A stretch of DNA of 64,000 bases, from positions 1,012,721-1,076,720 of the forward strand of contig CAVRCM010000003.1 in NCBI GenBank assembly GCA_963719585.1. The letters are read 5' to 3'. Each line of letters begins with the position of its first letter. The first letter of the stretch is position 1. Shown one piece after another: positions 29,667-44,402 of the stretch. The position numbers were made by a program, and so were the translations under genes. The DNA is from an uncultured Acidobacteriaceae bacterium. GTDB taxonomy: Bacteria; Acidobacteriota; Terriglobia; Terriglobales; Acidobacteriaceae. The notes beneath the pieces are model-generated. The model was given only the letters and a program-made list of their open reading frames with translations, had not been told where the DNA came from and did no database searches.

Positions 29667-29966
29667 GTGGTTGTTGTAATTGCTGTGGCCGCGCTGACGA
29701 TGAGCGTGGCGACTCGCTATTATTCCCTTCAGGATACTTCCTCTCGTCCTGTCAGCACCGTCCAAAAACAAGCTGTTCCGGATGCGAGACCGCAGCGCCT
29801 TACCAAAAACGCCGCCATCTGGAGTCCTCCAGTATTTTCTTTTGCAGTTTCGCAGGTCCCCAGTTTTCATCCTCGCATTGATTCCGCCCGGCCCCTGCGG
29901 CGAAGTCTGGTCCGTGATACAAGCCTCTACAATCGGCCTCCTCCCGCTTCTAATTCCTTCTCATAG
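29667..29966 (+). CDS. Small TM-anchored protein ending YNRPPPASNSFS* (paralogue of 40605-40937); candidate leader/arrest peptide
   Basis: GTG start with GGAG 5 nt upstream, an N-terminal helix (VVVIAVAALTMSVA) and a Pro/Ser-rich linker. Its C-terminal motif is shared with the second ORF in this window. Confidence 0.4.
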   Translation: MVVVIAVAALTMSVATRYYSLQDTSSRPVSTVQKQAVPDARPQRLTKNAAIWSPPVFSFAVSQVPSFHPRIDSARPLRRSLVRDTSLYNRPPPASNSFS

Positions 29967-30163
29967 GTTCCTAATCGATCCGGTCATCGTCACTGAGTTG
30001 TTGCTCGCAGTTTAGCGCTGAGACTTGGTAACCTAAATCCCAGGAACCGCATCCATGCAGCTTCTTGCGCGTGGATTGGCAGGCGAGGTCGGGCGAGGAT
30101 TGGATTGGCCGGGCCGATAGAAACCGATTAGGTAGACATTTCAGTTCCGAGAAAGGAAATGCT

Positions 30164-30898
30164 ATGCAGGCTGCGCCTTCGTTGACGGGAGATGAGCTCG
30201 ACGCTCTACGCCAATTCGATACCTGCACGGTGGCGAATGCGATCGAGTCGTTTAATGTCAGGCTCCGTAACACGGGCTTTACCGACGCTCGCATCCGTTG
30301 CATGTTCGAGGACGCACCATCCACCGTCGGTTACGCGGCAACCGCCCATTTGCGCAGCGGAGAGCCGCCAATCGGCGGCGGCACATTCCATGACCGCGCC
30401 GATTTCTGGAATAGCATTCTCGAAATTCCCGCCCCACGCATTCTGGTCCTGGAGGATATGGACACTCATCCCGGACGAGGCGCTTTTGTGGGAGACATGC
30501 ATGCTGCCATCTTGCAGGCTCTGGGTTGCGTCGCCTACGTCACGAATGGCGCCGTGCGCGAATTGCCTTCCGTCCGCAAAATGGGATTTCAGCTGTTCGC
30601 CGGGAGCGTAGCCGTTTCTCACGCCTACGCCCATATCTTTGAGATTGGGACGCGAGTCACCGTGGCGGGGATGGACGTGCGGCCGGGGGATTTATTGCAC
30701 GGCGACCGGCACGGAATTCTTACCGTACCGCCTGAAATTGCGCCGTGCATTCCCGCCGCGGCAGATCGAATGCAACAGGCGGAGCAGGAAATAATCCGTT
30801 TTTGCCAATCCGAGGATTTTTCCGTCGCGAAATTAGGCGAGATCATGAACAGACGCTTGAGGAAGCGAAACGCGAATGAGGCGAGGACAATTCGATGA
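30164..30898 (+). CDS. RraA family protein (RNase E regulator A / HMG-aldolase-like fold)
   Basis: LRQFDTCTVANAIE, RILVLEDMDTHPGRGAFVGDMHAAILQALG, and GDLLHGDRHGILTVP. ATG 30164 follows GAAAGGAA. Its stop overlaps the next ATG (ATGA). Confidence 0.75.
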   Translation: MQAAPSLTGDELDALRQFDTCTVANAIESFNVRLRNTGFTDARIRCMFEDAPSTVGYAATAHLRSGEPPIGGGTFHDRADFWNSILEIPAPRILVLEDMDTHPGRGAFVGDMHAAILQALGCVAYVTNGAVRELPSVRKMGFQLFAGSVAVSHAYAHIFEIGTRVTVAGMDVRPGDLLHGDRHGILTVPPEIAPCIPAAADRMQQAEQEIIRFCQSEDFSVAKLGEIMNRRLRKRNANEARTIR

Positions 30899-32170
30899 TG
30901 GAAGCCTGCATTCGATTCGTTAAGCGGCCGCTCCGCCCTTCGATGCCGTTGCTTTCCTGCCTCCTTGCCAGCATGGTGGCCGCAACGGCGGTGTTGTCAT
31001 CCTGCTCAGGCAGCCGCGATGAGCGGGTGCAGGCGAGCACGGAGGTGCCTACAGTCGGAGTGACAAACGTAGTGAAAAAATCTCTCAGCCAGCGACTTAC
31101 CTTATCTTCCGAACTGGTGCCCTTCCAGGAAATCGATGTCTACGCTAAGGAATCAGGCTTCGTACAAAAACTGAATGTCGATTACGGAACTCACGTGAAG
31201 ACCGGCCAGGTGATGGCAGTTCTTGAAATTCCGGAGCTGCAGGCGCAACTCCAGGAAGATGAGGCGGAGATCAAAAATGCAGCAAACCAAGTGACCCGGG
31301 CGCGGAACGAACTATCTCGTTACGAAGCACAGTATAAAGCACTGCACCTGGAATACACGCGTTTGAATGGAGTCTTTCAAAGCCAGCCCGGAATTGTGGC
31401 GCAGCAAGAAGTGGACGACGCTCAGGGCAAGGATCTCGCGGCGTCGTCTCAAGTAGACGCCGGCCAGGCAGCCCTGGAAGCGGCGCAGAGCCAGATGGGC
31501 GCGACTAAGGCGAAGTTGGTTCACGACCAAAGTCTGTTCGATTATTCGAAAATCACAGCGCCGTTTGCCGGAGTGGTAACCGAGCGTTATGCGAACCTCG
31601 GCACACTGGTGCAAGCGGGAACCGGTTCGAGTACTCAGGCCATGCCCATCGTCCGCCTGTCCGAAGACGATCTATTCCGGCTGGTGATTCCAGTGCCGGA
31701 GTCCTATGTTCGATATATCAAAGTGGGCGATCCCGTGGACGTTCATGTGCCTTCACTGGATCGCACTTTTCCCGGCAAGGTAGCGCGCTTTTCCGTAGAT
31801 GTGCGGGAAGACACTCGCACCATGCACACCGAGGTGGATGTTTCCAATCCGCAACGCATCTTGCTGCCCGGCCTCTATGCGGAAGCAAAGTTAAATCTTG
31901 AACAAGAACACGATGTTCCCACCGTGCCGATCCAGGCTTTAAACCACGAAGGCGAGAGAATCACCGTTCTCGTGGTTGACGGGAACGGCGCCTTGGAAGA
32001 GCGGACTGTGCAGGTAGGTCTCCAGACCGCAAGCGATGCCGAAATTCTCTCGGGATTGAACCGCGGGTGAGCAGGTCGTTGTCAGTGATCGCAGTGGGCT
32101 AAAGCCGGGAGAAAAAGTTCAGGCGCGGGAAGTGGCCATGATGCAGTACCACGAGGACAATACGCAGTAA
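30895..32170 (+). pseudogene. Efflux RND periplasmic adaptor (MFP/HlyD family) lipoprotein; frame break near 32058-32068
   Basis: Lipobox VLSSCSG, then coiled-coil and barrel-sandwich motifs (ITAPFAGVVTERYANLGTLV). After ILSGLN the natural C-terminus GEQVVVSDRSGLKPGEKVQAREV...NTQ* is in the next frame (stop 32168-32170). Confidence 0.85.
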
Positions 32171-32217
32171 TCCGCAGACCGCTCTAGCCAGCTCTGCGGC
32201 GCAACTGGACAAACATT

Positions 32218-35200
32218 ATGCCAGGGTTTTCGATTCGCAATCCGTACTTCATCGTCGTGATCTGCCTGACACTTCTGGTCATCGGCGTGACCAGCCTGGC
32301 GCGGATGCCGGTGGATTTGTTCCCTCCGATCAATCTGCCCGAAGTCGTAGTGGCCACCTTCTACACGGGAATGCCGCCCGAGGATATTGAAACCGACATC
32401 ACTGATCCTCTGGAACGCTTCTTTACTCTGGCATCCGGCGTCGACCACATGGAATCGCGCTCCATGTTAGGCGTCAGCATTATCCGCGTTTACTTCCAAC
32501 CGGGAACCAGCGCAGATGCCGACGTAAGCCAGCTGTCGAACCTGGCGCTCGCCGACTTGAAGCGTTTGCCCCCGGGGACTCTGCCTCCCGTGGTCCTCAA
32601 GTTCGACGCTTCCAGTCTTCCCGTGGCGCTGGTTACCGTGAAAGGCGAAGGACTCAGCGAAACTCAACTTCACGATTACGCTCAGTTTCAGATTCGCAAC
32701 CAGATCGCAGTCGTTCCCGGCGCGGAAATTCCAGGCGTATTCGGTGGAATCTACCGCCAGGTCATGGTCTACGTCGACCCCTACAAACTGGAGTCCCGTC
32801 AACTTAGCGTGATGGACGTGGTCAGTGCGGTCAATGATGCCAATCTGATTCTGCCCGCTGGCGACGTAAAAATGGGGCCCTACGATTACTTCGTTTACTC
32901 CAACAGCCTGGTCGACAACATGAAGCAACTGGGAGAGGTTCCGATCAAGGTAAAGGGCCACTCCTGGGTAACGGTCAATGACGTTGGAAAAGCGGAAGAT
33001 GCTCACGGAATTCAAACCAACATTGTGCGGATCGATGGCCAGCGATCTGCCTATATTCCGATTATGAAGCAGGGCGGCGATACCAACACCATCGCCGTCG
33101 TCGATGGCGTCCGCCAACTTATCAAGCACTTATACGATATTCCCCAGCAGATGAAGACCAGCGTTGTTTTTGACCAGTCAGTGTTTGTGAAGGAGGCAAT
33201 TCGCACGGTATTGCATGAAGGCGCGTTGGGTTTGATTCTTACCAGCTTGATGATTCTCATTTTTCTGGGAAGTTTTCGCGCGACGACGGCGGTATTGCTG
33301 TCCATTCCTTTGTCCGCGCTGGCCGCATTTGTGGTGCTGGCCTTAATGGGCGGGACGATCAATACAATGATCCTGGGCGGAATGGCACTGGCATTCTCCC
33401 GCGTAATCGATAATTCTGTCATTTCGCTGGAGAACATTTACCGCCATCTGGAGATGGGCGCCGCGCCCATGATTGCCGCGGAGGTCGGCGGCCAGGAGGT
33501 AAACCTGGCGGTGTTGGCCGCCACTCTGGTCGATGTGGTCGATTTCTTCCCCGTCGTTTTTCTTTATGGCGTGGCCAAGTTTCTCTTTTCCGCATTGGCG
33601 CTGGCATTTTGCTTGTCTCTGCTGGCTTCGTTTGTCGTAGCGATGACAGTGATCCCCTTATTTTGCTCGCGCTTCTTGAAGGCCGTACATCACGTCCCGG
33701 AGCATACAAAAAAGGACGATGAGTATGAAGTCGAACCAACCGCCCCGCAGAGTCAATCCTGGATGGACCGGTTCAACGCCCGCTTCAACCGCATGTTCAA
33801 CAAACTCCTCGATTACTACGAACACTGGGTGAGACGAGCGTTGGTGCGTCCGGGACTTACTGTCGCGATTTTAAGCTGCGTGTTTCTGGCAAGCTTGGCA
33901 ATTTATCCATTGTTAGGCTTGGCATTTTTCCCCAAGACGGACGCTGGTCAGTTCACCATCAACATGAAAGTTCCCACCGGCACCCGGATTGAGATGGCCA
34001 ACCAATACGTGGCCAAGGTGGAAGATCTGATTCGCCACGAAGTTGAACCAAAAGATTTCAAACGCATTGTGTCCAACATCGGCGTAGTTCCTGATTTTTC
34101 CTCGCTCTACACCACCAACTCTGGCCCTTACACCGCAACCGTCCAGGTAGCTTTGAATGAACCGCACCGGCTCAGCAGCTTCGAATATATGGATCGGGTG
34201 CAGAAGGCGATGGCCAGCCAGTTCCCCGATGTTCGCACATTTTTTTCCAGTGGTTCGATGGTCGATGCCATTTTGAATTCTGGCGCGCCGGCTCCCATCG
34301 ATGTGCAGGTCAGCAGCCCTGATCTGGATCAGATCTACGGCATCGCGCAGCATTTGGCTGCTCGCATTCGAGAGGTGCATGGCGTCGGCCAGGTCTTCAT
34401 CCCGCAGGATATGAATTATCCGGCTCTGCGGCTCGACGTAGACCGCGTGCACGCCGGTGAGTTAGGACTGACGCAAAAAGACGTGGTCGATAACGTGATC
34501 ACTGCGCTCAATTCCAATTACATGATCGCCCCCAATTATTGGGTGGATCGCAAAAGCGGAAACGACTATTACCTCACTGTCCAATATTTCGAACATGGTG
34601 ATGCGGCCATTCATAACATGGCCGACTTGGGACAGATTCCGCTACGCGATCCGGGAAGCGGAGCGGGAATGACCTGCGGTCCCAGTCGGCCCGCCCCAGC
34701 CCGGTACCGGCCACTCTTCATGGGCGTGTCTTGGGCCGGGCAGGCCGACGACGGTGCTCAAGAATGTCGTCGACGTAAAGCAGATTTTGACTCCGACTGA
34801 AGTGGATCACTATCAGATCCAGCGAGCCGTCGACATCTTTGTTACTCCCAACGGAGAAGACCTTGGACGCGTGACCAGCGCCATTCGAGACATTCTTGCC
34901 AAAGAAAAGTCGATCCCCTCCAACGTGCGCGTACATCTCCGCGGGATGGTGCAGGGCATGGAGGCCTCATTCAAGAGCTTTGCCTTCGGCTTCCTGATTT
35001 CTTTTCTCCTGCTGTTCCTCATCCTGACCGCGCAGTTCAAGTCATTCATCGATCCTTTTCTGATCATGCTCGCAATCCCGATGGGTTTTGTCGGTGTGCT
35101 GATCATACTGCCGCTCACTCACGCCACATTGAATGTCATGTCTTTGATGGGGGTGCTGATGCTGGTTGGTATTGCCGACTCGAACAGCATTCTGATCGTT

Positions 35201-35503
35201 GACTTCGCTCACAACCTTGAGCGCCAGGGACTAGCTCCGGCAGACGCAGTGATCACCGCCTGCCGGGTGCGTCTGCGACCGATTCTAATGACCTCTCTGG
35301 CAACCATTATCGGAATGATTCCAATGGCGCTGAAACTGGGTACTGGCGCGGAACAGTATGCCCCCATGGCGAAGGCCATCATCGGAGGGTTGACCTCTTC
35401 CGTGGTGCTGACCATCTTCATCGTGCCCGCGGCTTATTTGCTGGTATACGGCAAAAAGAATCCGCAAACCGCGGCAACTCCGCAGACGGAGCCAGCGAAA
35501 TAA
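32218..35503 (+). pseudogene. RND efflux permease (AcrB/HAE family); one or two frame breaks between ~34640 and 34760
   Basis: MPGFSIRNPYFIVVICLTLLVIGV and 12-TM RND organisation. ORF 32218 decays into non-homologous sequence after LGQIPLRD. ORF 34754 resumes with TEVDHYQIQRAVDIFV...MSLMGVLMLVGIADSNSILIVDF. Confidence 0.9.
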
Positions 35504-35581
35504 TGAGAAACGAGAACGTCACGATCGCTTGAACCGCTCAGGGACTCCGGCGCCACTTCCATCAGAAGATCGAGAGGCGCG

Positions 35582-37109
35582 ATGCCAGGAGCTCGATAAC
35601 CAGGAGCAATAATTTCATCCCTTGTGCGCTGGTAGCGTTATGGGTGATTATGCCGCACAGTAGCCTCGCGCAGACGCCTGACCCGCCGCGCCCAGTCGAA
35701 AATCTACCCTCCGCTCCGCAACCGCAGTCGGCACACCAAACGCAGCCTATTGCCGTGCCTCCCGGAGCGCAGGCAACGCTGATAGTCAGCTTTCCTCGCG
35801 GTCCGCTGGATTGCAAACGGGTATCTTCCGCCGATCCACAAGCGGCGCAGGCCGTTCGCGACGCCCGCTGGCCCATTCGTTTAACCCGCACCGAGGCCGA
35901 GCAGATAGCCCTGAAGAACAATCCTCGAATCAGCGTCGGGAAAATTGCTCGCGCTGGCACAACACCAGGTCTATCGCGAGACCAGGGCAGCCGAACTCCC
36001 TAACTTTAACGGCGCGGTTACCGCAGTCGATGCCAACGAAGGCAGCCGCATCGGCGCTGGGTCCCTCACTGCTTCGCGCGTGCTTGAGCATGCTGGCGCC
36101 GGGGTCATTCTCAGCCAGCTGATCACGGATTTTGGCAGGACCATGAATCTCGTGTCCTCGGCAAAGCTTCAGGAAAAGGCCCAGAACGCCAACGCGCTCG
36201 CCACAACCGAAGACATCGTTTTGGCAACCGACCAGGCCTTCTACAATGCGCTGAGGCCCAGGCTCTGCTCAAAGTTGCGCAACAAACCGTGACCACTCGA
36301 GGGTCGGTTCAACATCAAATCGATGAACTTACGAAGAAGTAAGCTGAAATCCACTCTGGACTTATCATTTGCCGAAGTGAACTTGTCGCAGGCCAAACTG
36401 CTGCAACTCGATGCGCGAAAATAATGTCGATTCCACCATCGCCGCCCTCACGGCGATTCTCGGATTCGATAAGCAGAGTCTAGATATGAATTGACCGAAG
36501 AAGAAACACAGCTTCCGTCGCCGCCCCCTGATCTCGACGTGCTCATCAATACTGCATTGCAGCAACGTCCCGACTTGCAGGCTCTCACTTATAATCAACA
36601 GGCGGCGGAAAAATTTCATCGCGCCCAGCGCGATCAGCTCTTGCCTACTATCAGCGCTCTCGGCATAGCCGGAGTCACTCCCGTCCGTCCTGACTGCTTC
36701 GGTGGTTGTTTGCTCTTCCAACTATTTCATTTCCAGCTGGTATGGCGCCATCGGCGTAAACATGAACGTCCCTATCTTTAACGGTTTTCTTTTCACTGCG
36801 GAAGCTTCAGAGGCAAAATACAGGGCGAAAGCGGCAACCGAAAATACCCGAGATTTGCGGGACCGGGTGGTGCGTGATGTTCGCACCGCGTGGCTATCGG
36901 CGAATACGGCTTTTCAGCGCGTCGGCGTGGAAGCCGAACTCGCCAAGGAAGCTGATCTGGGATTGAGTCTCGCCCACGGTCGTTATCAGTTGGGGTTAGG
37001 TTCTATCGTCGAACTCAGCCAGGCCCAACTGAACCAAACCGATGCGGCGATTGGTTATGTCAACGCTCAGTATCAGTACCGGCTCGTCTCTCTCAACATT
37101 AAACTTTGA
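35582..37109 (+). pseudogene. TolC-family outer-membrane efflux protein, at least 5 disruptions
   Basis: TolC-like pieces are scattered over three frames. They include LTRTEAEQIALKNNPRI, ARAQHQVYRETRAAELPNFNG, LITDFGRTMNLV, LKSTLDLSFAEVNLSQAKLLQLDAR, ALQQRPDLQAL, YGAIGVNMNVPIFNGF and AQYQYRLVSLNIKL*. The start is uncertain. Confidence 0.8.
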
Positions 37110-37414
37110 AATGGGAGTTAAGCCGTAAGACTGCGCTGGGATTGACGCAGGACAATCCAGGCCTAGGCTGTTTCAAATATGCTTCCCTTTTGCCTTTATT
37201 TCGTCGCCAGCGTGATCACCGGCTTTCACGTCTACCCTTGCTCGCTCTGACTTTATATGGTGCGCCCTTTAATCCTCTGGAGCTTGTTTCTTTGTTCGGT
37301 TCTTTTCTTCTTCTGATTGCCGCTTGCATCAGCCTGTTTCGTCCCTATGCCGCCGCTAGAGTTGCACTGATCGGCTGCTTGTTGATTTGGTCTTTTATGC
37401 GCCCGCGACCGTAA
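37106..37414 (+). CDS. Hypothetical small membrane protein (possibly frame-broken)
   Basis: The C-terminal half is hydrophobic (LVSLFGSFLLLIAACISLF, VALIGCLLIW). An alternative ATG at 37179 in another frame also encodes a TM segment. Weak call. Confidence 0.25.
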   Translation: MKWELSRKTALGLTQDNPGLGCFKYASLLPLFRRQRDHRLSRLPLLALTLYGAPFNPLELVSLFGSFLLLIAACISLFRPYAAARVALIGCLLIWSFMRPRP

Positions 37415-37665
37415 CCTGGTGCGGCATGGGTTTCATAGGCACAAGGTCGTCTCCTGCAACCATCAAATCGGATGGGACGCGACTCCTCGATTAATCGCTG
37501 ATGATACTGCCATTCGTAGCTCTCGCTTTCTCGCGTTCGTTACCGTATATTCCGCAATCGTAAGTTCAGAAAAACCGAAGGCGTTGCGCCCAGTTGGATT
37601 TTCCCAAACGTCGCGAAACGGTCGGCACAAATCGTAGTCGGAATTCTCGCTTCTCGCTCTTTTGA

Positions 37666-38072
37666 TTGCGTTCCCAATCTGGCTCGGCTTTGGCGTTCGG
37701 TCATGAAAGCCTTCGCTCTTCGCGATTTTTGATTCCCGAAAACTACACAGGTTGGGTCCGCGTCGAATTCGACGTGCAAGGCGCTCCTCCATTGCCCATG
37801 GATCACGGCGAATACACCATTGAAATTCCTTCAGGCGGAATATTGCGAACTTCTTCGGCTGAACAATATGGATGGGCGCACGATCGATACTATTACTACT
37901 CTGGCCAGACGATGCACTCGCTTTCAGATTCCGGGGAAGGCCGCGATGATCTGGGGAAAACTCAACGGAGAAGCTGCCGGCAAATCAGGTAAACAAAAGT
38001 ATGAGGAGTTTTTCGTCGGAACCGCTCGAGCAGTTCAAGGATCAAGGCAAAGAAAAACATCCTTCTCCATAA
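37666..38072 (+). pseudogene. Conserved hypothetical (FLIPENYTGWVRVEF...GAPPLP family, DUF6843-like by memory); at least 2 frame breaks
   Basis: RFLIPENYTGWVRVEFDVQGAPPLPMDHGEYTIEIPSGGILRTSSAEQYGWAHDRYYYYSG, then MIWGKLNGEA...EEFFVGT in a second frame and EQFKDQGKEKHPSP* in a third. A TM helix sits upstream in yet another frame. Confidence 0.4.
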
Positions 38073-38107
38073 CGCGGGACCGCGAAGCCGCTATCGCCCA
38101 TCACGCA

Positions 38108-38957
38108 TCAGAAAAGCAAGCGTGAAGTCAGCACGAGCCCATGATTGTAAGTGTGGAATTGCGAAGTCGCAATCTGCATGCCACCGCCAAAGATCAACCC
38201 GAGCCGGTTACGGGGGTCGCGCTGCAGTTTGAAGTTGCTCAGCATCAATCCCGGTGTCACAAAATTCTGCACGTGGCCGTCATTCGTTCCGCCGTGATAG
38301 AAAGTTGCATTGCTCTCGATCTCCGGCCAGAGGAATTTGATGAGGTGATACTGCGCCACCGTATTCCAGGCCACTACACGACCTAGTTTTGCCGAGTAAC
38401 CTGCGGGCAGACCACGCCAATACTCGATTGCACATCAAACCTTCGAAAACCTTTGCCCCCACAAACAATCGGAGTAACGGTCGAGGCCAGGCTTCCGTTC
38501 TTATAGCTGCCGGTGGGCAATGTGCCTGTCAGAGAAACACTCAACGAATAATTACCGCCCTCTTCATTGGCTGCAACCACGCGGTACTTCAGCAGCATGG
38601 AAAAGTCACCAAAGCCATCCACCGCTTTCGAATTGTGCTGGATATATGGCGGAGCCAGCGCATCGAATTCCAGGTTGTACCAGGGCACCAGACTAACGCC
38701 CTTCCCGTTGTCATAGTTCCAGGTGTCGGTACCCGCCGGCGCAATCTGCCGGACAACATCCGTCCGCGCCACCTGCAACAATCCCGACGACGCCGTCACC
38801 AGAGGAATTGGCCAGGAAGGCTGCTGCGCCAGCGTGCTGCGCACACGATCTTCCCAGTTTGTGAAGAAACTCGAGCGACTGGCTCTGCCCTGCGCACAGC
38901 GAACTTCCACCCAACCGCGCTACAGCGCACACACAACACCAGCAGTCTCTTGAAGAT
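38108..38957 (-). pseudogene. Outer-membrane beta-barrel protein (MetA-pathway/phenol-degradation-like transporter family); at least 2 frame breaks (~38425, ~38900)
   Basis: Signal peptide VIFKRLLVLCV in one frame. A second frame carries PSWPIPLVTASSGLLQ...DGFGDFSMLLKYRV...GGKGFRRFDVQSS. A third carries YWRGLPAGYSAKLGRVVAWNTVAQYH...GGGMQIATSQFHTYNHGLVLTSRLLF* (terminal Phe). Confidence 0.6.
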
Positions 38958-39570
38958 CACAGCGCCTCCCGACTGATACTCAAGCGATAAAGCTTGACCT
39001 TTATTTTTGTTGGAACCCCGTGCAACCCCACACGAAAGAGTTCCAACTTTTTAACGGTTGTGTCGGGAAGTGTCGATAATCGGAATCAACTAGAGCCGGG
39101 AATACCAATCCAGTTTATTTCTGGCTATCTGCGCTCTAAATGTTTGATCGACAAGCAGGCTCGCGCAATGCGACCAGCGGTTATAAACCATGCATGCGAT
39201 TTGCAGTAGGCAGAAATGTCGCGCCAGTTACCATCCGGCGGGGCGATCGGAGGCCCTTCGAATGAACGGATTTCCGCACTCAGCACTTTAATCTGAAGTG
39301 GCGACTCCTTCGACGGGGCACTCGCGGCCGCTACTAATAAAAGAGTGAGGACACAAGATTTGGCGCGGAACAGAATCCTCCTCGGCCCCGACTATGGAGA
39401 TGTTGCGAACGCGGCTGTGGTTGGCTATGCGATTCGAAACACCACGTCCCATTTGTCGCTCATGGATTAAAGAAAACCTCAAACCACCTCCCGCCCGCAT
39501 CTAATTATGAAAGCCTTGCAAGAAACATGGGCCGCACGACCAGCGCACAGGCTTTGTCGGGAGAACAGCC

Positions 39571-40512
39571 ATGTACAAACTTTCTTTTCTATCGTGTATC
39601 GCAGTCGCTATGAGCGTTTTCTTGCCCACCCTCCTTCCAGCCCAAGAAGCGAACGCGCCGTCGGCGTCAGCCCGTTTGCTGGTGACGGTCGAAGCGCTTC
39701 ACGGCAAGGATGTACCCGAAGTCACGCGTCCGGATGTGATCGTGTTCGAAGGCCGGGACCGTGACGAAGTTAGCAATTGGGTGCCTGCGCAAGGAGACAA
39801 CGCAGCGCTCGAACTTTTCATTCTTCTTGATGATGGATCCACCGCGAGTCTCGGGTCTCAACTGAACGAGCTTCGCCAATTTATCAACTCTCAGCCGGAA
39901 TCGACCAAGGTCGGAGTTGCCTACATGCAGAACGGGATCGCGAAAGTGCAACAGGGTTTAACTGCCGATCATAATGCGGCAGCGCAATCTCTCAGGCTGC
40001 CCTTGGGTGAGCGCGGAATTAACGGCAGCCCTTATTTTTCTCTCACCGATCTGATCAAGCATTGGCCGCAAACCTCGGCCCGGCGAGAGGTTCTCATGAT
40101 TACGGACGGAATCGATCCCTACTATGGCGGTTGGGATCCACAGGATCCTTATCTCAGTGCCGCCATCGAGGACGCCCAGCGCGCAGGCGTAGTGGTCTTT
40201 GCTATTTACACCCCAGGAGTCGGTCATTTCGATCATAGTTATGGGCGCACCTATTGGGGCCAGATGTATCTTTCGCGGCTCGCCGATGAGACCGGCGGCG
40301 AATCCTATTACATCGGATTCAATGGCCCACCCGTAAGCTTCGACCCTTACCTCGACGATATGGCTGCTCATCTCGCTCATCAGTATTTCTTGACGTTCAT
40401 TCCCAAGCCGCAAAAAACGAGCGGCTGGCGCTCCATAAGATTGAAGACTGAAGTTCCCAACGCAGATTTAGTCTCAGCGGATAAAGTTTACGTCGTCGGC
40501 ATAAATCCCTAG
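39571..40512 (+). CDS. VWA-like secreted protein (acidobacterial VWFA-related domain, TIGR03436-like)
   Basis: A signal peptide, then LELFILLDDGST, REVLMITDGIDPY, AGVVVFAIYTPG, and LADETGGESYY. Confidence 0.75.
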   Translation: MYKLSFLSCIAVAMSVFLPTLLPAQEANAPSASARLLVTVEALHGKDVPEVTRPDVIVFEGRDRDEVSNWVPAQGDNAALELFILLDDGSTASLGSQLNELRQFINSQPESTKVGVAYMQNGIAKVQQGLTADHNAAAQSLRLPLGERGINGSPYFSLTDLIKHWPQTSARREVLMITDGIDPYYGGWDPQDPYLSAAIEDAQRAGVVVFAIYTPGVGHFDHSYGRTYWGQMYLSRLADETGGESYYIGFNGPPVSFDPYLDDMAAHLAHQYFLTFIPKPQKTSGWRSIRLKTEVPNADLVSADKVYVVGINP

Positions 40513-40604
40513 TACGTCTATGCAGAGAGAATGGCGGATTCCGATAGATCAAAGTAAGTAACCAAAATTGTTGCGCGATCATCCTATAGACCAGGGTAAA
40601 GCCG

Positions 40605-40937
40605 ATGTCGCAGGAGCGGCATTTTCGGAGACACAGCCACGCACTCATGTTTCGAGCCGGGCTTGCGTCCGTTGTGCTCTTCGCCCTGCTGAATGCGCGC
40701 GATATCCCTTCGCATTTCCGGCCCACATCGAAAACTCACTCCACCATAACTTCCGATTCTCAGCACGATCAGAGGCCTCGGTTTGACCATCACACTTTGG
40801 ATTGGAACGTTGCAGCACCCACTATCCTGCCGTTTCCTACGTTCGACAAATCGGCGCATCCGACCCCAGCGCCGCAATTATTCTCTACTCTTCAAACCAA
40901 GGGATTTCACTTCAACCGCCCGCCTCCGTTCAGCTGA
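40605..40937 (+). CDS. Small TM-anchored protein ending HFNRPPPFS* (paralogue of 29667-29966); candidate leader/arrest peptide
   Basis: ATG start, TM helix (AGLASVVLFALL) and a Pro/Thr/His-rich linker. It shares landmarks with the 29667 ORF (D-x-RP, W, P-[ST]-F, [YF]NRPPP near the stop). Confidence 0.4.
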   Translation: MSQERHFRRHSHALMFRAGLASVVLFALLNARDIPSHFRPTSKTHSTITSDSQHDQRPRFDHHTLDWNVAAPTILPFPTFDKSAHPTPAPQLFSTLQTKGFHFNRPPPFS

Positions 40938-41049
40938 TCGCCTGGTATTTGAGCCTCAGTCAATCCAACCGTAGCGATTGGCTGACCCTGTCACTTCAGC
41001 AGATACCAACGTGAAGTGGAGCAAATCGAAGACCCTGGGGAGGGACACA

Positions 41050-41395
41050 ATGAGCGGAATGACAATTCTGTGCATCGAGGATCAGTTCGACAATATGGCA
41101 ACTCTCACCTGCATGCTGGAAGGGATTGGTTACGAAGTCATCGCGGCAACGCAATGCGAAACAGGCGATTGATCTTTTTGCAGACCAACCCGTCGACGGA
41201 GTGCTGTTGAAATATAACCTGCCCGACGCAGTTGGCACCAGCCTGCGTGCCGAGCTCAAAGCCATACGGCCTAATGTTCCCGTGTTGTTGTTCGATGGAA
41301 TCGGCAGCCAAACTCCGGTCATGCTGCGCTTTTTCGATGCATATCTCAGGAACATGGAACGCCTTGCAAGCGATTTAGGAGACTTGGAAGCATGA
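41050..41395 (+). pseudogene. Stand-alone receiver-like domain lacking the phospho-acceptor Asp; frame break near 41150
   Basis: TILCIEDQFDNMATLTCMLEGIGYEVIAAT continues in the next frame as NAKQAIDLFADQPVDGVLLKYNLPDAVG...VPVLLFDG...FDAYLRN. Lys occupies the usual Asp position (LLKYNLP versus LLDxxMP). The conserved Thr/Ser and Lys also appear replaced. Confidence 0.7.
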
Positions 41396-41824
41396 AAACA
41401 CAGCAAAAGACGATAAGAATGAATCACCTCAGAAATTCAGCGCTTCAAGCACATTCTCAAAGTTCGCCTGGAGCAGACGATAAGATCACTCGATCGATTG
41501 CACGACGAAACCCGAAGCATCGATTCTGACTCACCTTCTGACTCCGCCGATCAGTGCGTGCTCAGTCTCTCTCGGGAAGCGCTCTTCCACCAGAGTGGGG
41601 AACGACGCGTCATGGTTCGACGAATTGAAGCCGCTCTCAGCCGAATCAAGAAAAATAGTTTCGGAATTTGTATTGGCTGCGGCGACAGTATCAATTCCCG
41701 TCGGCTTGAGGCTCTCCCTTGGACGCAGTACTGTCTTGACTGCCAGGAGGATTTGGAGCGCAACCAGACATTAAGCCAAACCAGCCGGCCTCATCGCGAA
41801 GTTGCGTTAAGAAAAACGGGTTGA
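41392..41824 (+). pseudogene. DksA/TraR-family C4 zinc-finger protein; probable frame break near 41423-41432 (or non-canonical start)
   Basis: C4 finger CIGCGDSINSRRLEALPWTQYCLDCQ. The helical N-terminal region EIQRFKHILKVRLEQTIRSL lies upstream of the listed TTG 41498 and just after an in-frame TGA. ATG 41392 overlaps the receiver stop (ATGA) but is in another frame. Confidence 0.7.
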
Positions 41825-41869
41825 GTCAGCCGTCCGTCGAAAGATGAAGGATCAGGAAGGAGAAATATT

Positions 41870-42670
41870 ATGAACTCGATTCGTACCTTGCGAGTTCTTT
41901 CTTGCGCACTGGTCGCGACAATCTACGCGACAGTGTTTTCCACAATGTTCGCAACTCCATTGTTGGCTCAGACCGCAATCGACGCAGGTACAATCCTGCC
42001 GGTTCGTTTAAATTCTGAGCTCAATTCGCGCAAGGCCAGACCTGGACAGGTCATCAATGCGCGGCTCATGCAGGACATTCATCTCCCGTCAGGATCAACA
42101 CTTCACCCCGGCGCCAAAGTGATTGGCCACGTGATAAATGTTGAACGCGCCAAAGCTGCAAATGCCGCACAATTGTCCATCCGCTTCGATGCGCTGATTG
42201 TGTCCGGCCGGAGAATCCCCATCACCACGAATGTAAGAGCAATCGCATCGATGATGGATGTGGAGGACGCGCAAATTCCAGAATTTGGTCCTGACCGCGG
42301 CACACCGGAAAATGCCTGGACGACAGACCAGATCGGCGGCGAAGTGGTTTACCGCGGAGGCGGACCGGTTGCCAACGGCTGGCGCGCTGTCGGTCAGCCA
42401 ACCCCCAATGGCGTCCTGGCACAGGTCTCTGCCAAGCCTGGGACGAACTGCCGCGCTGACGTCGAAGGCAACGATCGGCCGCAAGCGCTTTGGTTGTTTT
42501 CCTCCGATGCCTGCGGAACCTACGGGTTCTCCGATTTAACAATCGTGCACGCGGGTCGAACCCATCCAGTTGGTCAGATCACATTCGCATCAGAGCGCGG
42601 CGACGTAAATATTAGGGCGGGCAGCGGAATTCTGCTGCGAGTAATCAGTACGACGCCTGATAACAGATGA
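41870..42670 (+). CDS. Secreted hypothetical protein
   Basis: GGAAGGAG precedes the ATG. Signal peptide LSCALVATIYATVFSTMFATPLLAQT. I recognise no family. Confidence 0.6.
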   Translation: MNSIRTLRVLSCALVATIYATVFSTMFATPLLAQTAIDAGTILPVRLNSELNSRKARPGQVINARLMQDIHLPSGSTLHPGAKVIGHVINVERAKAANAAQLSIRFDALIVSGRRIPITTNVRAIASMMDVEDAQIPEFGPDRGTPENAWTTDQIGGEVVYRGGGPVANGWRAVGQPTPNGVLAQVSAKPGTNCRADVEGNDRPQALWLFSSDACGTYGFSDLTIVHAGRTHPVGQITFASERGDVNIRAGSGILLRVISTTPDNR

Positions 42671-42812
42671 GGTCTGCCAACCATATCGGAGGTGGGCGCG
42701 GTAAGAACGGGCGAACATTGCTCAAACCGCCCGTCCTTCGCCGCGCGGTGTATAAAAGCTAGACCCACACATCGTGGAGGATTTCGTCAGATCGCTATAA
42801 TGAACGCAGCTC

Positions 42813-44402
42813 ATGCCCCGGCTTGCTTCCGCAACCCGCTGGCTGTTTGACGCGGAGCAAGGCCCTCGCGACCGCATGGCTCCGCGATGGCTTTTTCTGC
42901 GCGCCTTGGGCGGCATTTATTTTTCCGCATTTTTCTCTCTGGTATTTCAGATCCGTGGGCTCATCGGCCCGGATGGAATTCTCCCGGCAAACGAATATCT
43001 TCGAGCCGTAGTTCATTCGCTTGGTTACGGTCGCGGCTTATGGTTTGCTCCAACCCTTCTTTGGCTTTCGAGCGGCCCGCATATGCTCACCGCCTTGTGC
43101 TGGGTGGGCATGATTGCGTCATTACTGCTGATCGTGAATGTATGGCCGCGCGGAATGCTGGCGATCTGTTTCGTCTGCTTCCTTTCTTTTGTGAGCGCCG
43201 CGCAGGATTTCTCCAATTACCAGTCGGACGGAATGCTGCTCGAAGCGGGATTCATCGCCCTCTTCTTTGCTCCGCGCGGATTCCGCCCTGGCTTGGGTCT
43301 GACGTCACCGCCATCGCGCGCCAGTCTATTTCTGCTGCAATGGGAATGGTTCCGCATTTACTTCGAATCCGGTGTGGCAAAGATTATCGGAGGAGATCCC
43401 GAATGGCGCCACTTCACCGCCATGGATGAGTACTATCAAAATGGTCCGCTGCCTACGTGGATCGGTTGGTACGTGCAACACCTGCCGCACTGGTTTCACG
43501 CCGCGTCTGTCTTTGCCACTCTTGCGCTCGAGTTAGTCTTGGTTTGGATGTTATTTCTTCCGCGCCGCTGGCGCATCGTCTGTTTTTTGATTGTCACTCC
43601 CTGGGAACTGGGAATTATTCTTACTGCCAACTACACGTTTCTAAATTACCTCGTTCTGTCTTTAGGATTTCTTTTGCTGGATGATCGCTTTCTGCAGCGC
43701 TTCTTGCCGCAAAGGTGGGAGAAATATCTTCCCTTGGATTCAACACCCGAGCAAAGCCAAGCGCAAAGTTCAGGAAGCTTTATTCACTTCTTCAAATCGG
43801 TGCAACTATCTCTGACCGGCATTTTTCTAACTTGGATTTTCTACGCCACAACCGCGCAATTGATCTGGATGTTCTCCCCCGTGCCCCTGCCGATGTCGCC
43901 AGTAGCGGCGCTGGAGCCCTTGCGCATCGCCAACCGTTACGGGCTTTTCGGAATCATGACCCGAGGCCGCTACGAGATAGAGTTCCAGGGTTCCCAGGAT
44001 GGACAAAACTGGATCGCATATCCCTTCCGCTATAAGCCGCAGGATCCGGCGAAGCCGCCTGGCATCTACGCGCCTTATCAGCCGCGCTTCGATTGGAATC
44101 TGTGGTTTGCTTCGTTGGGCTCGTGGCAAGATTATCCCATCGTGCCCAGAACCGAAGTGCGTCTGCTTTCGAATGACAAAGACGTTCTCGCTCTGTTCGC
44201 GGACAATCCCTTTCCGAAAGAGCCGCCGCGGGAGATACGCGCGGTGCTGTGGCAATATTGGTTTACGTCGATGTCGGAAAAACGCAGTACGGGACTTTGG
44301 TGGCGGCGTCAATACCTGGGACTTTACGCTCCGGCGCTCACGCGCGAACCAGGAGGTCAAATTCGCGCCGTCGAATGGCCCACCGTGGCTCCTCGCGAGT
44401 GA
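42813..44402 (+). CDS. Lipase maturation factor (LMF1-like) family membrane protein
   Basis: The 529-aa polytopic N-terminal half (GIYFSAFFSLVFQIRGLIGPDGILPA, LLQWEWFRIYFESGVAKI, DEYYQNGPLPTW) and the soluble C-terminal half (YEIEFQGSQDGQNWIAYPFRYKPQDP...YQPRFDWNLWFA) match my memory of the LMF family. Confidence 0.75.
   Translation: MPRLASATRWLFDAEQGPRDRMAPRWLFLRALGGIYFSAFFSLVFQIRGLIGPDGILPANEYLRAVVHSLGYGRGLWFAPTLLWLSSGPHMLTALCWVGMIASLLLIVNVWPRGMLAICFVCFLSFVSAAQDFSNYQSDGMLLEAGFIALFFAPRGFRPGLGLTSPPSRASLFLLQWEWFRIYFESGVAKIIGGDPEWRHFTAMDEYYQNGPLPTWIGWYVQHLPHWFHAASVFATLALELVLVWMLFLPRRWRIVCFLIVTPWELGIILTANYTFLNYLVLSLGFLLLDDRFLQRFLPQRWEKYLPLDSTPEQSQAQSSGSFIHFFKSVQLSLTGIFLTWIFYATTAQLIWMFSPVPLPMSPVAALEPLRIANRYGLFGIMTRGRYEIEFQGSQDGQNWIAYPFRYKPQDPAKPPGIYAPYQPRFDWNLWFASLGSWQDYPIVPRTEVRLLSNDKDVLALFADNPFPKEPPREIRAVLWQYWFTSMSEKRSTGLWWRRQYLGLYAPALTREPGGQIRAVEWPTVAPRE

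What the first reader, a model, noticed from the sequence alone, without database searches (positions are those of the whole stretch)
40605..41052. Second member of the TM + (F/Y)NRPPP small-ORF family, heading the receiver/DksA-like operon
The 110-codon ORF encodes MSQERHFRRHSHALMFRAGLASVVLFALL (TM), a His/Thr/Pro-rich linker, and ..DQRPRFDHHTLDWNVAAPTILPFPTFDKS..KGFHFNRPPPFS*. RPPP lies at 40917-40928, only two codons before the stop and 112 nt upstream of the next ATG. The spacer holds a 7-8 bp hairpin (40991-40998 with 41012-41019). The Pro codons (CCTCC, 40923-40927) are complementary to the core of the downstream SD (GGAGG within 41037-41044), though this 5-bp match is weak on its own. 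Its value lies in the paralogy with 29667-29966. Two independent copies keep the same architecture and terminal motif, which argues that these ORFs are real and that the C-terminus is functional.
Basis: partly seen in the sequence, partly recalled or inferred. Interest (0 to 1): 0.62.

Follow-up and report, generated by a model that had tools for sequence, protein, structure and literature searches.

The report
Exported RPPP ribosome-stalling leader peptide
This is a real, conserved gene for a small exported, unstructured protein of peat and soil Acidobacteria that ends in an invariant Arg-Pro-Pro-Pro two codons before its stop, and it most likely acts as a ribosome-stalling leader that controls the signalling genes behind it, like the known CruR and CutF leaders, although stalling itself has not been tested.

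Summary
The ORF at 40605-40937 exists as described. It belongs to a large, unnamed family with no Pfam or NCBIfam match. The family has about 250 proteins at 90% clustering and 409 clusters at 50%, all from Ca. Sulfotelmatobacter-like Acidobacteria.

Family features:
- a Sec-type signal peptide with a 14-residue h-region;
- an unstructured chain;
- a conserved HDQRPRFD motif placed 45 residues (44 in a few) before an invariant RPPP;
- usually two more residues, then the stop.

The 29667 ORF is a true distant paralogue (hhalign 96.5%, E 9e-10). A closer paralogue lies elsewhere in the genome.

The gene always heads the same module: an optional HisKA-only membrane protein, an Asp-less receiver, a DksA-like protein and a secreted protein. 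The sister family heads RraA/RND-efflux operons instead.

This anatomy matches the CruR and CutF (DUF2946) sensory arrest leaders and the RAPP/LPPP arrest peptides. RPPP is arrest-competent when placed in ApdP. However, DUF2946 membership fails the HMM test and the CXXC test.

The proposed CCUCC-to-SD pairing is not supported by folding tests. Even so, the middle Pro codon is CCT in 62 of 77 loci, which is unexplained.

Verdict: a new variant of a known kind. Stalling has not been tested.

The parts
40605..40937 (+). Small ORF of 110 codons: the exported RPPP leader peptide
   Evidence: Metatranscriptome contigs from relatives cover 40609-40928.
40605..40697 (+). Signal-peptide-like N-terminus (residues 1-31). 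It has a positive n-region, an uncharged h-region of about 14 residues and an L-N-A|R end.
   Evidence: AF2 predicts a helix at residues 5-32 and nothing else.
40764..40787 (+). Conserved HDQRPRFD motif (H54-D61), the candidate sensing or force-generating element
   Evidence: F60 is invariant and D55, R57 and D61 are nearly invariant. F lies exactly 45 residues before the R of RPPP in 112 of 118 relatives, and in 105 of 134 further relatives.
40902..40928 (+). Candidate arrest motif G-F-H-F-N-R-P-P-P (G100-P108)
   Evidence: N104, R105 and P106-108 are invariant, and G100 and H102 are nearly invariant. RPPP is arrest-competent in ApdP and ApdA (PMC12992588).
40923..40925 (+). Middle Pro codon CCT, the inferred P-site codon of the stalled ribosome
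   Evidence: It is CCT in 62 of 77 loci, against 16-23% expected. The P-site assignment is by analogy with RAPP and LPPP toeprints.
40929..40937 (+). Two-residue tail (Phe-Ser) and the TGA stop
   Evidence: The tail is exactly 2 residues in 112 of 119 and 111 of 134 relatives. Its pattern is [IVLA][SAGC].
40938..41049 (+). 112-nt spacer. It holds the 3' arm (40974-40985) of the stem whose 5' arm (40930-40941) lies in the ORF tail and stop, plus the hairpin 40992-40998 / 41012-41018. No known RNA family, promoter or intrinsic terminator was found.
   Evidence: The fold is no more stable than shuffled sequence (z -0.25) and shows no covariation.
41037..41052 (+). SD (GGGGAGGG) and ATG of the downstream receiver gene
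   Evidence: The same arrangement, with an intact receiver, occurs in close relatives.
41050..41395 (+). Asp-less receiver domain gene. It is broken in the window by one extra base near 41150.
41392..41824 (+). DksA-family zinc-finger protein, 143 aa in relatives. It is broken in the window by one extra base near 41429.
41870..42670 (+). Secreted 266-aa protein without a family match, the last conserved member of the module
29667..29966 (+). Distant paralogue (LYNRPPP family). It heads the RraA-like / RND-efflux operon that runs up to the 40605 gene on the same strand.

Best explanation
The ORF encodes a co-translationally exported, intrinsically unstructured leader peptide. I propose it works in cis as a regulated translation-arrest element of the CruR/CutF type.

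**Shown**
- It is a conserved protein-coding gene with a signal-peptide-like N-terminus.
- It carries an internal HDQRPRFD motif at a fixed 45-residue distance from an invariant RPPP.
- The stop follows RPPP after two codons in most members.
- A 50-215-nt spacer follows.
- The gene sits at the head of a fixed module: an optional HisKA-only membrane protein, an Asp-less receiver, a DksA-like protein and a secreted protein.

**Inferred**
- The ribosome pauses with R-P-P on the P-site tRNA (codon CCU) and Pro-tRNA in the A site.
- At that moment the HDQRPRFD motif has just left the exit tunnel, or sits in the translocon.
- What happens to it there sets how long the ribosome stays. Candidate events are the pulling force of export, binding of a ligand, or binding of a partner.
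- The dwell time then decides whether the downstream genes are expressed.
- The coupling could work in two ways. The ribosome may shield a C-rich, G-poor tract around the stop codon from Rho, as with CruR. Or it may keep the CCUCC / UCCUU tracts from pairing with the downstream ribosome-binding site, as with CutF.
- I rate the Rho route slightly more likely, because equilibrium folding does not support SD unmasking.
- The signal that is sensed is unknown.
For: **Coding and family**
- Open frames with 29-49% identity occur across the genus. There are 248 and 409 database relatives, all unnamed. Arg and Pro codons vary synonymously.

**Arrest-peptide hallmarks**
- RPPP, including the Arg, is invariant in 253 of 261 relatives. 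Of the other eight, most end before the motif and two end at ...NRPP.
- The tail is exactly 2 residues in about 88%.
- The HDQRPRFD-to-RPPP spacing is fixed at 45. The linker after the signal peptide carries the indels.
- AF2 with 64 sequences gives only the N-terminal helix. The rest is coil with pLDDT 55-67.

**Literature**
- In ApdP, RAPP changed to RPPP keeps near wild-type arrest, and ApdA keeps partial arrest. Arg is irreplaceable. Stalling occurs with codons 3 and 4 of the motif in the P and A sites (PMC12992588).
- uA_LPPP stalls with the second Pro codon in the P site (PMC10987492).
- CruR has CXXC and RAPP motifs 45 residues apart, RAPP three residues from the end, a 162-nt spacer, a Rho mechanism and a poorly structured protein (PMC9426467).
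- CutF has a signal peptide, a C-terminal PPP and EF-P dependence.

**Cis-regulatory behaviour**
- The superfamily heads different operons: HisKA-like/receiver/DksA, receiver directly, RraA plus RND efflux, and RND efflux directly.
- A third, unrelated small ORF of the same genome has the same design. It carries a signal peptide, CXXC, 43 residues, R-P-P(CCT)-P, two residues and a stop. A 119-nt spacer follows, then a TonB-dependent receptor.

**Other support**
- The middle Pro codon is CCT in 62 of 77 loci, against 16-23% expected.
- C exceeds G in the last 90 nt of the ORF and the first 40 nt after the stop (C 0.38/0.33, G 0.21). A pyrimidine tract follows the stop.
- EF-P and Rho are both encoded in the genome.
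- Relatives' transcripts cover the ORF, the receiver gene and the DksA gene.
Against: - There is no direct evidence of stalling. No ribosome profiling, toeprint or reporter data exist.
- PPP stalls are normally relieved by EF-P, which is present.
- Masking the RPPP-to-post-stop region does not raise the predicted accessibility of the downstream initiation region: 0.372 against 0.376 over 39 loci, p 0.4-0.7, no better than a control mask.
- The RPPP window is only at the median 93rd percentile as a pairing partner of the SD.
- The spacer fold is not more stable than shuffles, and close relatives show no compensatory changes.
- The rut-like composition is only suggestive, and part of it follows from Pro/Ser/Thr/His codons.
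- Conserved residues far from the arrest site (F38, HDQRPRFD, W67, P78) and a semi-conserved tail would also fit a protein that acts in trans.
- The downstream genes are not export or metal genes, unlike in all validated cases. The adjacent RND pump scores as multidrug type rather than CzcA/CusA type, so the sensed signal is unknown.
Confidence: 0.6

Rival explanations
1. It is an ordinary exported or membrane-tethered small protein that acts in trans. It could be an accessory or inhibitor of the HisKA-only membrane protein and Asp-less receiver, in the manner of small modulators of sensor kinases. HDQRPRFD and the C-terminal NRPPPxx would then be binding or processing motifs. The polyproline would be a protein-interaction (PPII) element, not a stalling element.
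For: - Several conserved positions lie outside any arrest window: F38, H54-D61, W67 and P78.
- The tail is semi-conserved as [IVLA][SAGC].
- There is tight synteny with a membrane HisKA-like protein that has only a ~10-residue outer loop.
- An HtrA-type protease with PDZ domains is encoded divergently next to the paralogous locus.
- There is no RNA-level support for SD unmasking.
Against: - No fold is predicted beyond the signal helix.
- The same leader type heads unrelated operons, including loci without the HisKA-like gene and RND-efflux operons.
- Strict invariance of Arg plus three Pro at a fixed distance from the stop, and a synonymous constraint on one Pro codon, are not expected for a PPII ligand.
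- The last residue is small and polar, unlike typical PDZ ligands.
Confidence: 0.25
2. It is the precursor of a secreted signalling peptide (pheromone-like). The conserved C-terminal part would be released outside the cell and sensed by the HisKA-like membrane protein encoded next to it, as in peptide quorum-sensing cassettes (peptide gene, kinase gene, regulator gene).
For: The gene order is small exported peptide, then HisKA-like membrane protein, then receiver. The C-terminal dozen residues are the best conserved part.
Against: - The kinase-like protein has no ATPase domain, and the receiver has Glu or Lys instead of the phospho-acceptor Asp in 28 of 28 copies.
- Many loci, including the window, lack the HisKA-like gene.
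- The sister family heads efflux operons.
- Pheromones usually diversify between species, whereas this motif is invariant.
- No processing or export genes lie nearby.
Confidence: 0.08
3. It is a chance ORF or a non-coding regulatory RNA. The apparent peptide conservation would then be a by-product of conserved DNA.
For: The ORF is small, has no database name and is rich in C.
Against: - Relatives at 30-50% amino-acid identity keep the frame open over its full length.
- The invariant residues are encoded by varying synonymous codons.
- Gene callers found it independently in hundreds of assemblies.
Confidence: 0.02

Closest known systems
CruR (Bordetella pertussis Bp2923), DUF2946 / PF11162 (PMC9426467)
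   Same: - It is a small exported, poorly structured uORF product.
- An internal sensing motif lies about 45 residues before a C-terminal R-x-P-P arrest motif, with the spacing conserved across the family.
- The arrest motif lies 2-3 residues before the stop.
- A long spacer (162 nt, against 50-215 nt here) separates it from the regulated genes.
- There is a C>G region around the end of the ORF.
   Different: - There is no PF11162 match and no CXXC. The motif here is HDQRPRFD, and the arrest motif is RPPP instead of RAPP.
- It is acidobacterial rather than proteobacteria-dominated.
- Downstream lies a degenerate two-component/DksA module, not a TonB-dependent copper transporter.
- The ligand and Rho dependence are untested.
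CutF (Rhodobacter capsulatus cutFOG), DUF2946 (PMC9973294; bioRxiv 10.1101/2025.02.05.636593)
   Same: It has a Sec signal peptide, a sensing motif in the exported part and a C-terminal PPP stall motif with nearby positive charge. It is the first gene of the operon, and the product is expected to be short-lived.
   Different: - CutF unmasks the cutO SD from a defined stem-loop. No such conserved stem-loop or accessibility gain is found here.
- There is no CxxxC motif.
- There is no metal-detoxification gene downstream.
RAPP-type arrest peptides ApdA / ApdP and the RQH family; uA_LPPP of Planctomycetota (PMC7897499, PMC10987492, PMC10951233, PMC12992588)
   Same: - There is an N-terminal localisation signal and a C-terminal R-x-P-P or x-P-P-P motif within the last 15 residues.
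- The Arg is irreplaceable.
- RPPP was shown to support arrest in ApdP and partly in ApdA.
- Distribution is lineage-restricted and patchy.
   Different: Those peptides sit upstream of secA, secDF or yidC and monitor export capacity. This family was outside their search because its downstream genes are not Sec/YidC. It also has an additional conserved motif at a fixed distance.
SecM, VemP and MifM monitoring substrates
   Same: They are exported nascent chains whose arrest is thought to be released by translocation force, with downstream gene control in cis.
   Different: The arrest sequences are unrelated, the targets differ, and those leaders have no fixed internal motif at 45 residues.

Membership tests
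DUF2946 / PF11162 (CruR, CutF) | Significant match to the PF11162 profile | tested here: not met
   - No hit for the window protein at E up to 0.1, nor for 15 family members at E up to 10.
- A six-frame search of the whole genome with PF11162 found nothing over the cut-off.
- hhalign of the family profile against two acidobacterial DUF2946 proteins gave 27% and 0.2% probability.
DUF2946 / PF11162 (CruR, CutF) | Conserved CXXC / CxxxC metal-binding motif | tested here: not met
   No conserved Cys pair is present. The conserved internal motif is HDQRPRFD, or HDHRQCFDHED in one subfamily.
DUF2946 / PF11162 (CruR, CutF) | C-terminal RAPP-like or proline-repeat motif a few residues before the stop | tested here: met
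   RPPP is invariant and lies 2 residues before the stop in about 88% of members.
DUF2946 / PF11162 (CruR, CutF) | Conserved spacing of about 45 residues between the sensing motif and the arrest motif | tested here: met
   F of RFD to R of RPPP is 45 residues in 112 of 118 relatives, and F occupies position -45 in 105 of 134 more. The CruR value is from PMC9426467.
DUF2946 / PF11162 (CruR, CutF) | N-terminal Sec signal peptide | tested here: met
   The n-region has net charge +3, the uncharged h-region has a median of 14 residues, and the end is L-[AV]-A|R. AF2 predicts a helix at 5-32. This is a prediction only; no signal-peptide predictor was available.
Regulatory translation-arrest peptides (RAPP-like class) | The ribosome stalls at the motif (peptidyl-tRNA accumulation or toeprint) | not testable with these tools
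   There is only indirect support. RPPP substitutes for RAPP in ApdP, and partly in ApdA.
Regulatory translation-arrest peptides (RAPP-like class) | Expression of the downstream gene depends in cis on translation of the leader and on the arrest motif | not testable with these tools
   Conserved head-of-operon position and transcripts over both the leader and the downstream genes are consistent, but they are not a test.
Regulatory translation-arrest peptides (RAPP-like class) | An mRNA element near the stall site gates downstream expression (SD-sequestering helix or rut site) | tested here: inconclusive
   - The SD-masking tests were negative and there is no covariation.
- There is a C>G, pyrimidine-rich tract around the stop, and a Rho gene is present.
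- No rut predictor was available.
Sec/YidC monitoring substrates (SecM, VemP, MifM, ApdA/P) | Encoded immediately upstream of a secA, secDF or yidC gene | tested here: not met
   The downstream genes are a HisKA-like protein, a receiver, a DksA-like protein and a secreted protein, or RraA/RND efflux for the sister family.

The most novel reading that the evidence does not exclude
Acidobacteria of this lineage would use a portable arrest cassette as a general exported sensor. The cassette is a signal peptide, a sensing motif, 45 residues, R-P-P(CCU)-P, two codons and a stop. It would switch on different operons. In this case the operon is a phosphorylation-independent circuit: a HisKA-only membrane protein, an Asp-less receiver and a DksA-like RNA-polymerase binder. 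The strict CCU at the inferred P-site codon would mean that stalling strength depends on a particular tRNA-Pro or wobble geometry. That would be a codon-level requirement not described for RAPP or PPP arrest peptides.
Probability: 0.2. Interest if true: 0.8.

Novelty: new variant of a known kind. Interest (0 to 1): 0.6.

Why it matters
**Reach of the known mechanism.** Validated sensory arrest leaders are few. They are tied to protein-export genes (SecM, VemP, MifM, Apd) or to copper genes (CruR, CutF), and come mostly from Proteobacteria and Firmicutes. This family would extend the same design to an abundant, hardly cultivated soil and peat phylum. The new target would be a signalling and transcription module rather than a transporter or a translocase, and the sensing motif is new and has no cysteines.

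**Testable handles.** The strict 45-residue spacing, the fixed two-codon tail and the CCU codon bias can each be changed to dissect how a nascent chain outside the tunnel controls the peptidyl-transferase centre.

**Annotation.** The result gives a working annotation for several hundred 'hypothetical protein' clusters. It also flags the 50-215-nt spacers behind them as regulatory regions.

Tried and rejected
- **CCUCC-to-SD masking as the coupling device.** Three tests gave no family-wide effect. They were ensemble accessibility with a stalled-ribosome constraint in 22 loci, duplex ranking in 38 loci, and a wider mask including the post-stop tract in 39 loci. MFE folds do close an RPPP:SD helix in roughly 12-14 of 22 loci, but a CCUCC near any SD would do that.
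- **Conserved spacer structure.** RNAalifold on six close relatives found 0 compensatory pairs. The single-sequence fold is no better than shuffles.
- **Known RNA families, promoters and intrinsic terminators.** None were found.
- **DUF2946 membership.** Rejected by HMM and profile comparison. DUF2946 is also rare in the phylum, at 2 of 301 genomes.
- **Metal sensing inferred from context.** The neighbouring RND pump scores best as multidrug type (368 bits) rather than CusA/CzcA (212 bits). The P-type ATPase behind the paralogue has the Cation_ATPase_N architecture, not a heavy-metal type. A metal ligand is therefore not supported.
- **Earlier scan notes by sequence.** Nothing was found.
Full report
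**Observation**

- RPPP is CGC CCG CCT CCG at 40917-40928. Phe-Ser and TGA follow.
- The next ATG, at 41050, lies 112 nt after the stop and is preceded by GGGGAGGG (41037-41044).
- The spacer forms the reported hairpin (40992-40998 / 41012-41018). It also forms a 12-bp stem across the stop codon (40930-40941 / 40974-40985).
- The fold as a whole is no more stable than shuffled sequence (z = -0.25).
- No Rfam family, sigma-70-like promoter or intrinsic terminator is found there.

**The ORF is a real gene of a real family**

- A six-frame search of the window's own genome found a closer paralogue than the 29667 ORF. It lies at C3:596002-596358 and ends in ...WHYNRPPPLN (E 6e-11).
- In related genomes, 42 of 61 have a match. 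About twenty are full-length open frames at 29-49% identity.
- Across the class only the same family of genomes has it, 7 of 301.
- Named records are Candidatus Sulfotelmatobacter / Acidobacteriaceae MAGs from soil and peat.
- A profile search of 5.8 billion proteins gave 248 relatives. All are 'hypothetical' and none has a Pfam domain.
- An exhaustive HMM search of 1.84 billion representatives gave 409 clusters at E <= 0.001, and 177 at E <= 1e-10.
- Pfam and NCBIfam give no hit.
- Arg and Pro codons of the invariant motif vary synonymously between loci, so selection acts on the peptide.
- Contigs of a rhizosphere metatranscriptome from relatives cover 40609-40928, the receiver gene and the DksA gene. 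This is weak but positive evidence of transcription.

**Anatomy of the family**

- *N-terminus.* The n-region has net charge about +3. The uncharged h-region is exactly 14 residues in 157 of 243 members and ends in L-[AV]-A|R-[NSD]. This is a Sec signal peptide rather than a stable membrane helix.
- *Structure.* AlphaFold2 with a 64-sequence alignment predicts one helix (residues 5-32) and no further secondary structure. pLDDT is 55-67 and pTM 0.25.
- *Conserved positions.* They are F38, H54-D61 (HDQRPRFD, with F60 invariant), W67, P78, G100, H102 and N104, plus the invariant R105-P108.
- *RPPP.* Among 261 fetched relatives, 253 carry RPPP. It is never RAPP, RGPP or RSPP. Of the eight without it, most end before the motif and two end at ...NRPP.
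- *Tail.* The tail after RPPP is exactly two residues in 112 of 119 and 111 of 134 members. Its pattern is [IVLA][SAGC].
- *Spacing.* The F of RFD lies exactly 45 residues before the R of RPPP in 112 of 118, and 44 residues in the other six. F is at -45 in 105 of 134 further representatives. The stretch in between is poorly conserved. Indels are confined to the linker after the signal peptide.

**Paralogy with 29667-29966**

- Pairwise BLASTP is marginal (E 0.016).
- The 29667 ORF has its own orthologues in 23 of 41 related genomes.
- Its profile aligns to the 40605 profile over 83 columns with 96.5% probability (E 8.8e-10).
- Shared features are the signal segment, R-x-[QR]-[RF]..W-x-[AP]-P-V, and Y-N-R-P-P-P. 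The W-to-R spacing is 38 residues against 39.
- In several genomes the two types are encoded divergently next to each other.

**Context**

In every locus the gene is followed on the same strand, after 50-215 nt, by the same module:
- an optional 60-aa protein;
- an optional 176-178-aa two-TM protein with a HisKA-like H-box (MNHHIRNAL) and no ATPase domain;
- a 114-aa receiver whose phospho-acceptor position is Glu (23 copies) or Lys (5 copies, including the window), and never Asp;
- a 143-aa DksA-family protein;
- a secreted 266-aa protein.

The window belongs to the type without the HisKA-like gene.

The sister family heads RraA-like plus RND-efflux operons, or RND operons directly. In the window, this means that the 29667 leader, the efflux operon, the 40605 leader and the signalling module all lie on one strand. 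A leader type that heads different operons argues for action in cis rather than for a dedicated protein partner.

**Comparison with known systems**

- *CruR and CutF.* The design matches the DUF2946 sensory arrest leaders. CruR has CXXC and RAPP motifs 45 residues apart with conserved spacing. Its RAPP lies three residues before the end, a 162-nt spacer follows, and it works through Rho with a C>G region. The protein is poorly structured (PMC9426467). CutF has a Sec signal peptide, a CxxxC motif and a C-terminal PPP. It unmasks an SD from a stem-loop and depends on EF-P.
- *RAPP and LPPP peptides.* The design also matches the RAPP/LPPP arrest peptides upstream of sec/yidC genes.
- *Experimental support for RPPP.* ApdP with RAPP changed to RPPP keeps near wild-type arrest, and ApdA keeps partial arrest. 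Arg cannot be replaced. [quoted passage not shown]
- *Membership of DUF2946.* It is not supported. There is no PF11162 match in 15 members or in the genome, no CXXC, and only 27% hhalign probability to one acidobacterial DUF2946 protein. DUF2946 is rare in the phylum, at 2 of 301 genomes.
- *Conclusion.* This is 'works like', not 'is a member of'.

**How arrest would be coupled to the downstream genes**

- *SD unmasking.* Constraining a stalled-ribosome footprint, or the whole RPPP-to-post-stop tract, does not raise the predicted accessibility of the downstream initiation region (0.37 against 0.38-0.40, not significant). The RPPP window ranks only at the median 93rd percentile as a pairing partner. 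Close relatives show no covariation.
- *Rho route.* The last 90 nt of the ORF and the first 40 nt after the stop are C-rich and G-poor (C 0.38/0.33, G 0.21). The trend reverses further on. A pyrimidine tract of the form UCCUUYYC follows the stop directly. This is rut-like, and Rho is encoded. I therefore rate a CruR-like shielding of Rho slightly above SD unmasking, but both are inference.
- EF-P is also encoded.

**An unexplained signal**

- The middle Pro codon is CCT in 62 of 77 distinct loci of both families. The Arg, first Pro and third Pro codons vary freely.
- The genome uses CCT for 16% of Pro codons, and for 23% of middle codons of PPP.
- By analogy with the toeprints cited above, this is the P-site codon of the stalled ribosome.
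- A third small ORF elsewhere in the genome (C3:1323623-1323901) shows the same pattern. It carries a signal peptide, HHH..CQVC, 43 residues, R-P-P(CCT)-P, Val-Val and a stop. A 119-nt spacer follows, then a TonB-dependent receptor.
- That ORF is CruR-like in design. It matches neither PF11162 nor the YNRPPP profiles beyond the C-terminal motif.
- The recurrence suggests that R-P-P(CCU)-P plus two codons plus a stop is a reusable arrest cassette in this lineage.

**Rivals**

- A trans-acting exported accessory protein (about 25%) would explain the conserved residues far from the C-terminus. It fits poorly with the lack of predicted structure, the variety of operons, the fixed distance to the stop and the codon bias.
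- A pheromone precursor (about 8%) fits the gene order. It does not fit the degenerate kinase and receiver, the loci without the kinase-like gene, or the invariance of the motif.
- A non-coding reading is excluded.

**Side results**

- The receiver and DksA genes are each broken in the window by one extra base, near 41150 and 41429. Close relatives and contigs from three other samples lack these bases.
- An earlier follow-up on the 29667 finding reached the same general reading. I arrived at it independently and tested its main points here.

**Verdict**

The best explanation is a CruR/CutF-like exported sensory arrest leader of a new, non-DUF2946 family (confidence about 0.6). The coupling route and the sensed signal are open. 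It is a new variant of a known kind, of moderate to high interest because it is directly testable.

Noticed in passing
window 41150 and 41429 (also 41832): The window carries single extra bases that break the receiver gene (41050-41395) and the DksA-like gene (41392-41824). Relatives with 93% identical leaders have intact 114-aa and 143-aa genes. Contigs of three other samples lack these bases. They are probably long-read assembly errors.
   Followed up: yes
own genome G000:C3:1323623-1323901 (L084:2124-2402), outside the window: A third small exported ORF has a CruR-like design. It carries a signal peptide, HHH..CQVC, 43 residues and LYIRPPPVV before the stop, with the middle Pro codon again CCT. 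A 119-nt spacer follows, then GGAGG and a CarboxypepD_reg/Plug TonB-dependent receptor. It has no PF11162 match and resembles the YNRPPP families only in its C-terminal motif.
   Followed up: partly
own genome G000:C3:596002-596358 (L002): This is a closer paralogue of the 40605 ORF (34% identity, ending in WHYNRPPPLN) with the motif DHDHRPCFDHED. It heads a 60-aa protein, a HisKA-only membrane protein and a receiver. In relatives of this subfamily an HtrA-type protease lies divergently upstream, and a P-type ATPase with the Cation_ATPase_N architecture lies downstream.
   Followed up: partly
window 41050-41395 and homologous loci: The receiver has Lys (window lineage, 5 copies) or Glu (23 copies) at the phospho-acceptor position, and never Asp. 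Its usual partner is a two-TM protein with a HisKA-like H-box (MNHHIRNAL) but no ATPase domain. Together they form a phosphorylation-independent pseudo two-component pair, coupled to a DksA-family protein.
   Followed up: partly
loci L005, L007, L022, L023 (spacer between the leader and the HisKA-like gene): The long spacers (165-195 nt) share a conserved element: GGAGGCCGCYCATGGTTCA..GCGGCAGGAGGATTTCGACCAGCAG. It begins with an SD and an ATG or GTG. It could be a second mini-ORF or an RNA element, but the reading frames are not consistently conserved.
   Followed up: no
first 8 nt after the leader's stop codon, 40 loci (in the window, TCGCCTGG at 40938-40945 is a weak example): A pyrimidine tract of the form UCCUUYYC, with almost no G, follows the stop codon directly in most loci. 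It resembles both an anti-SD sequence and a rut site.
   Followed up: partly
locus L039 (a MAG with a 90% identical leader): The receiver gene is missing, and the leader is followed directly by the DksA-like gene. The spacer is conserved up to about 90 nt after the stop and then diverges.
   Followed up: no
window 29667-44402, + strand: The two RPPP leaders bracket one long same-strand cluster. In order it holds the leader, RraA-like, MFP, RND pump (multidrug type by NCBIfam), TolC-like, DUF6843 and an acidobacterial VWA protein. The second leader follows, then the receiver, DksA-like, a secreted protein and an LMF1-like membrane protein.
   Followed up: partly
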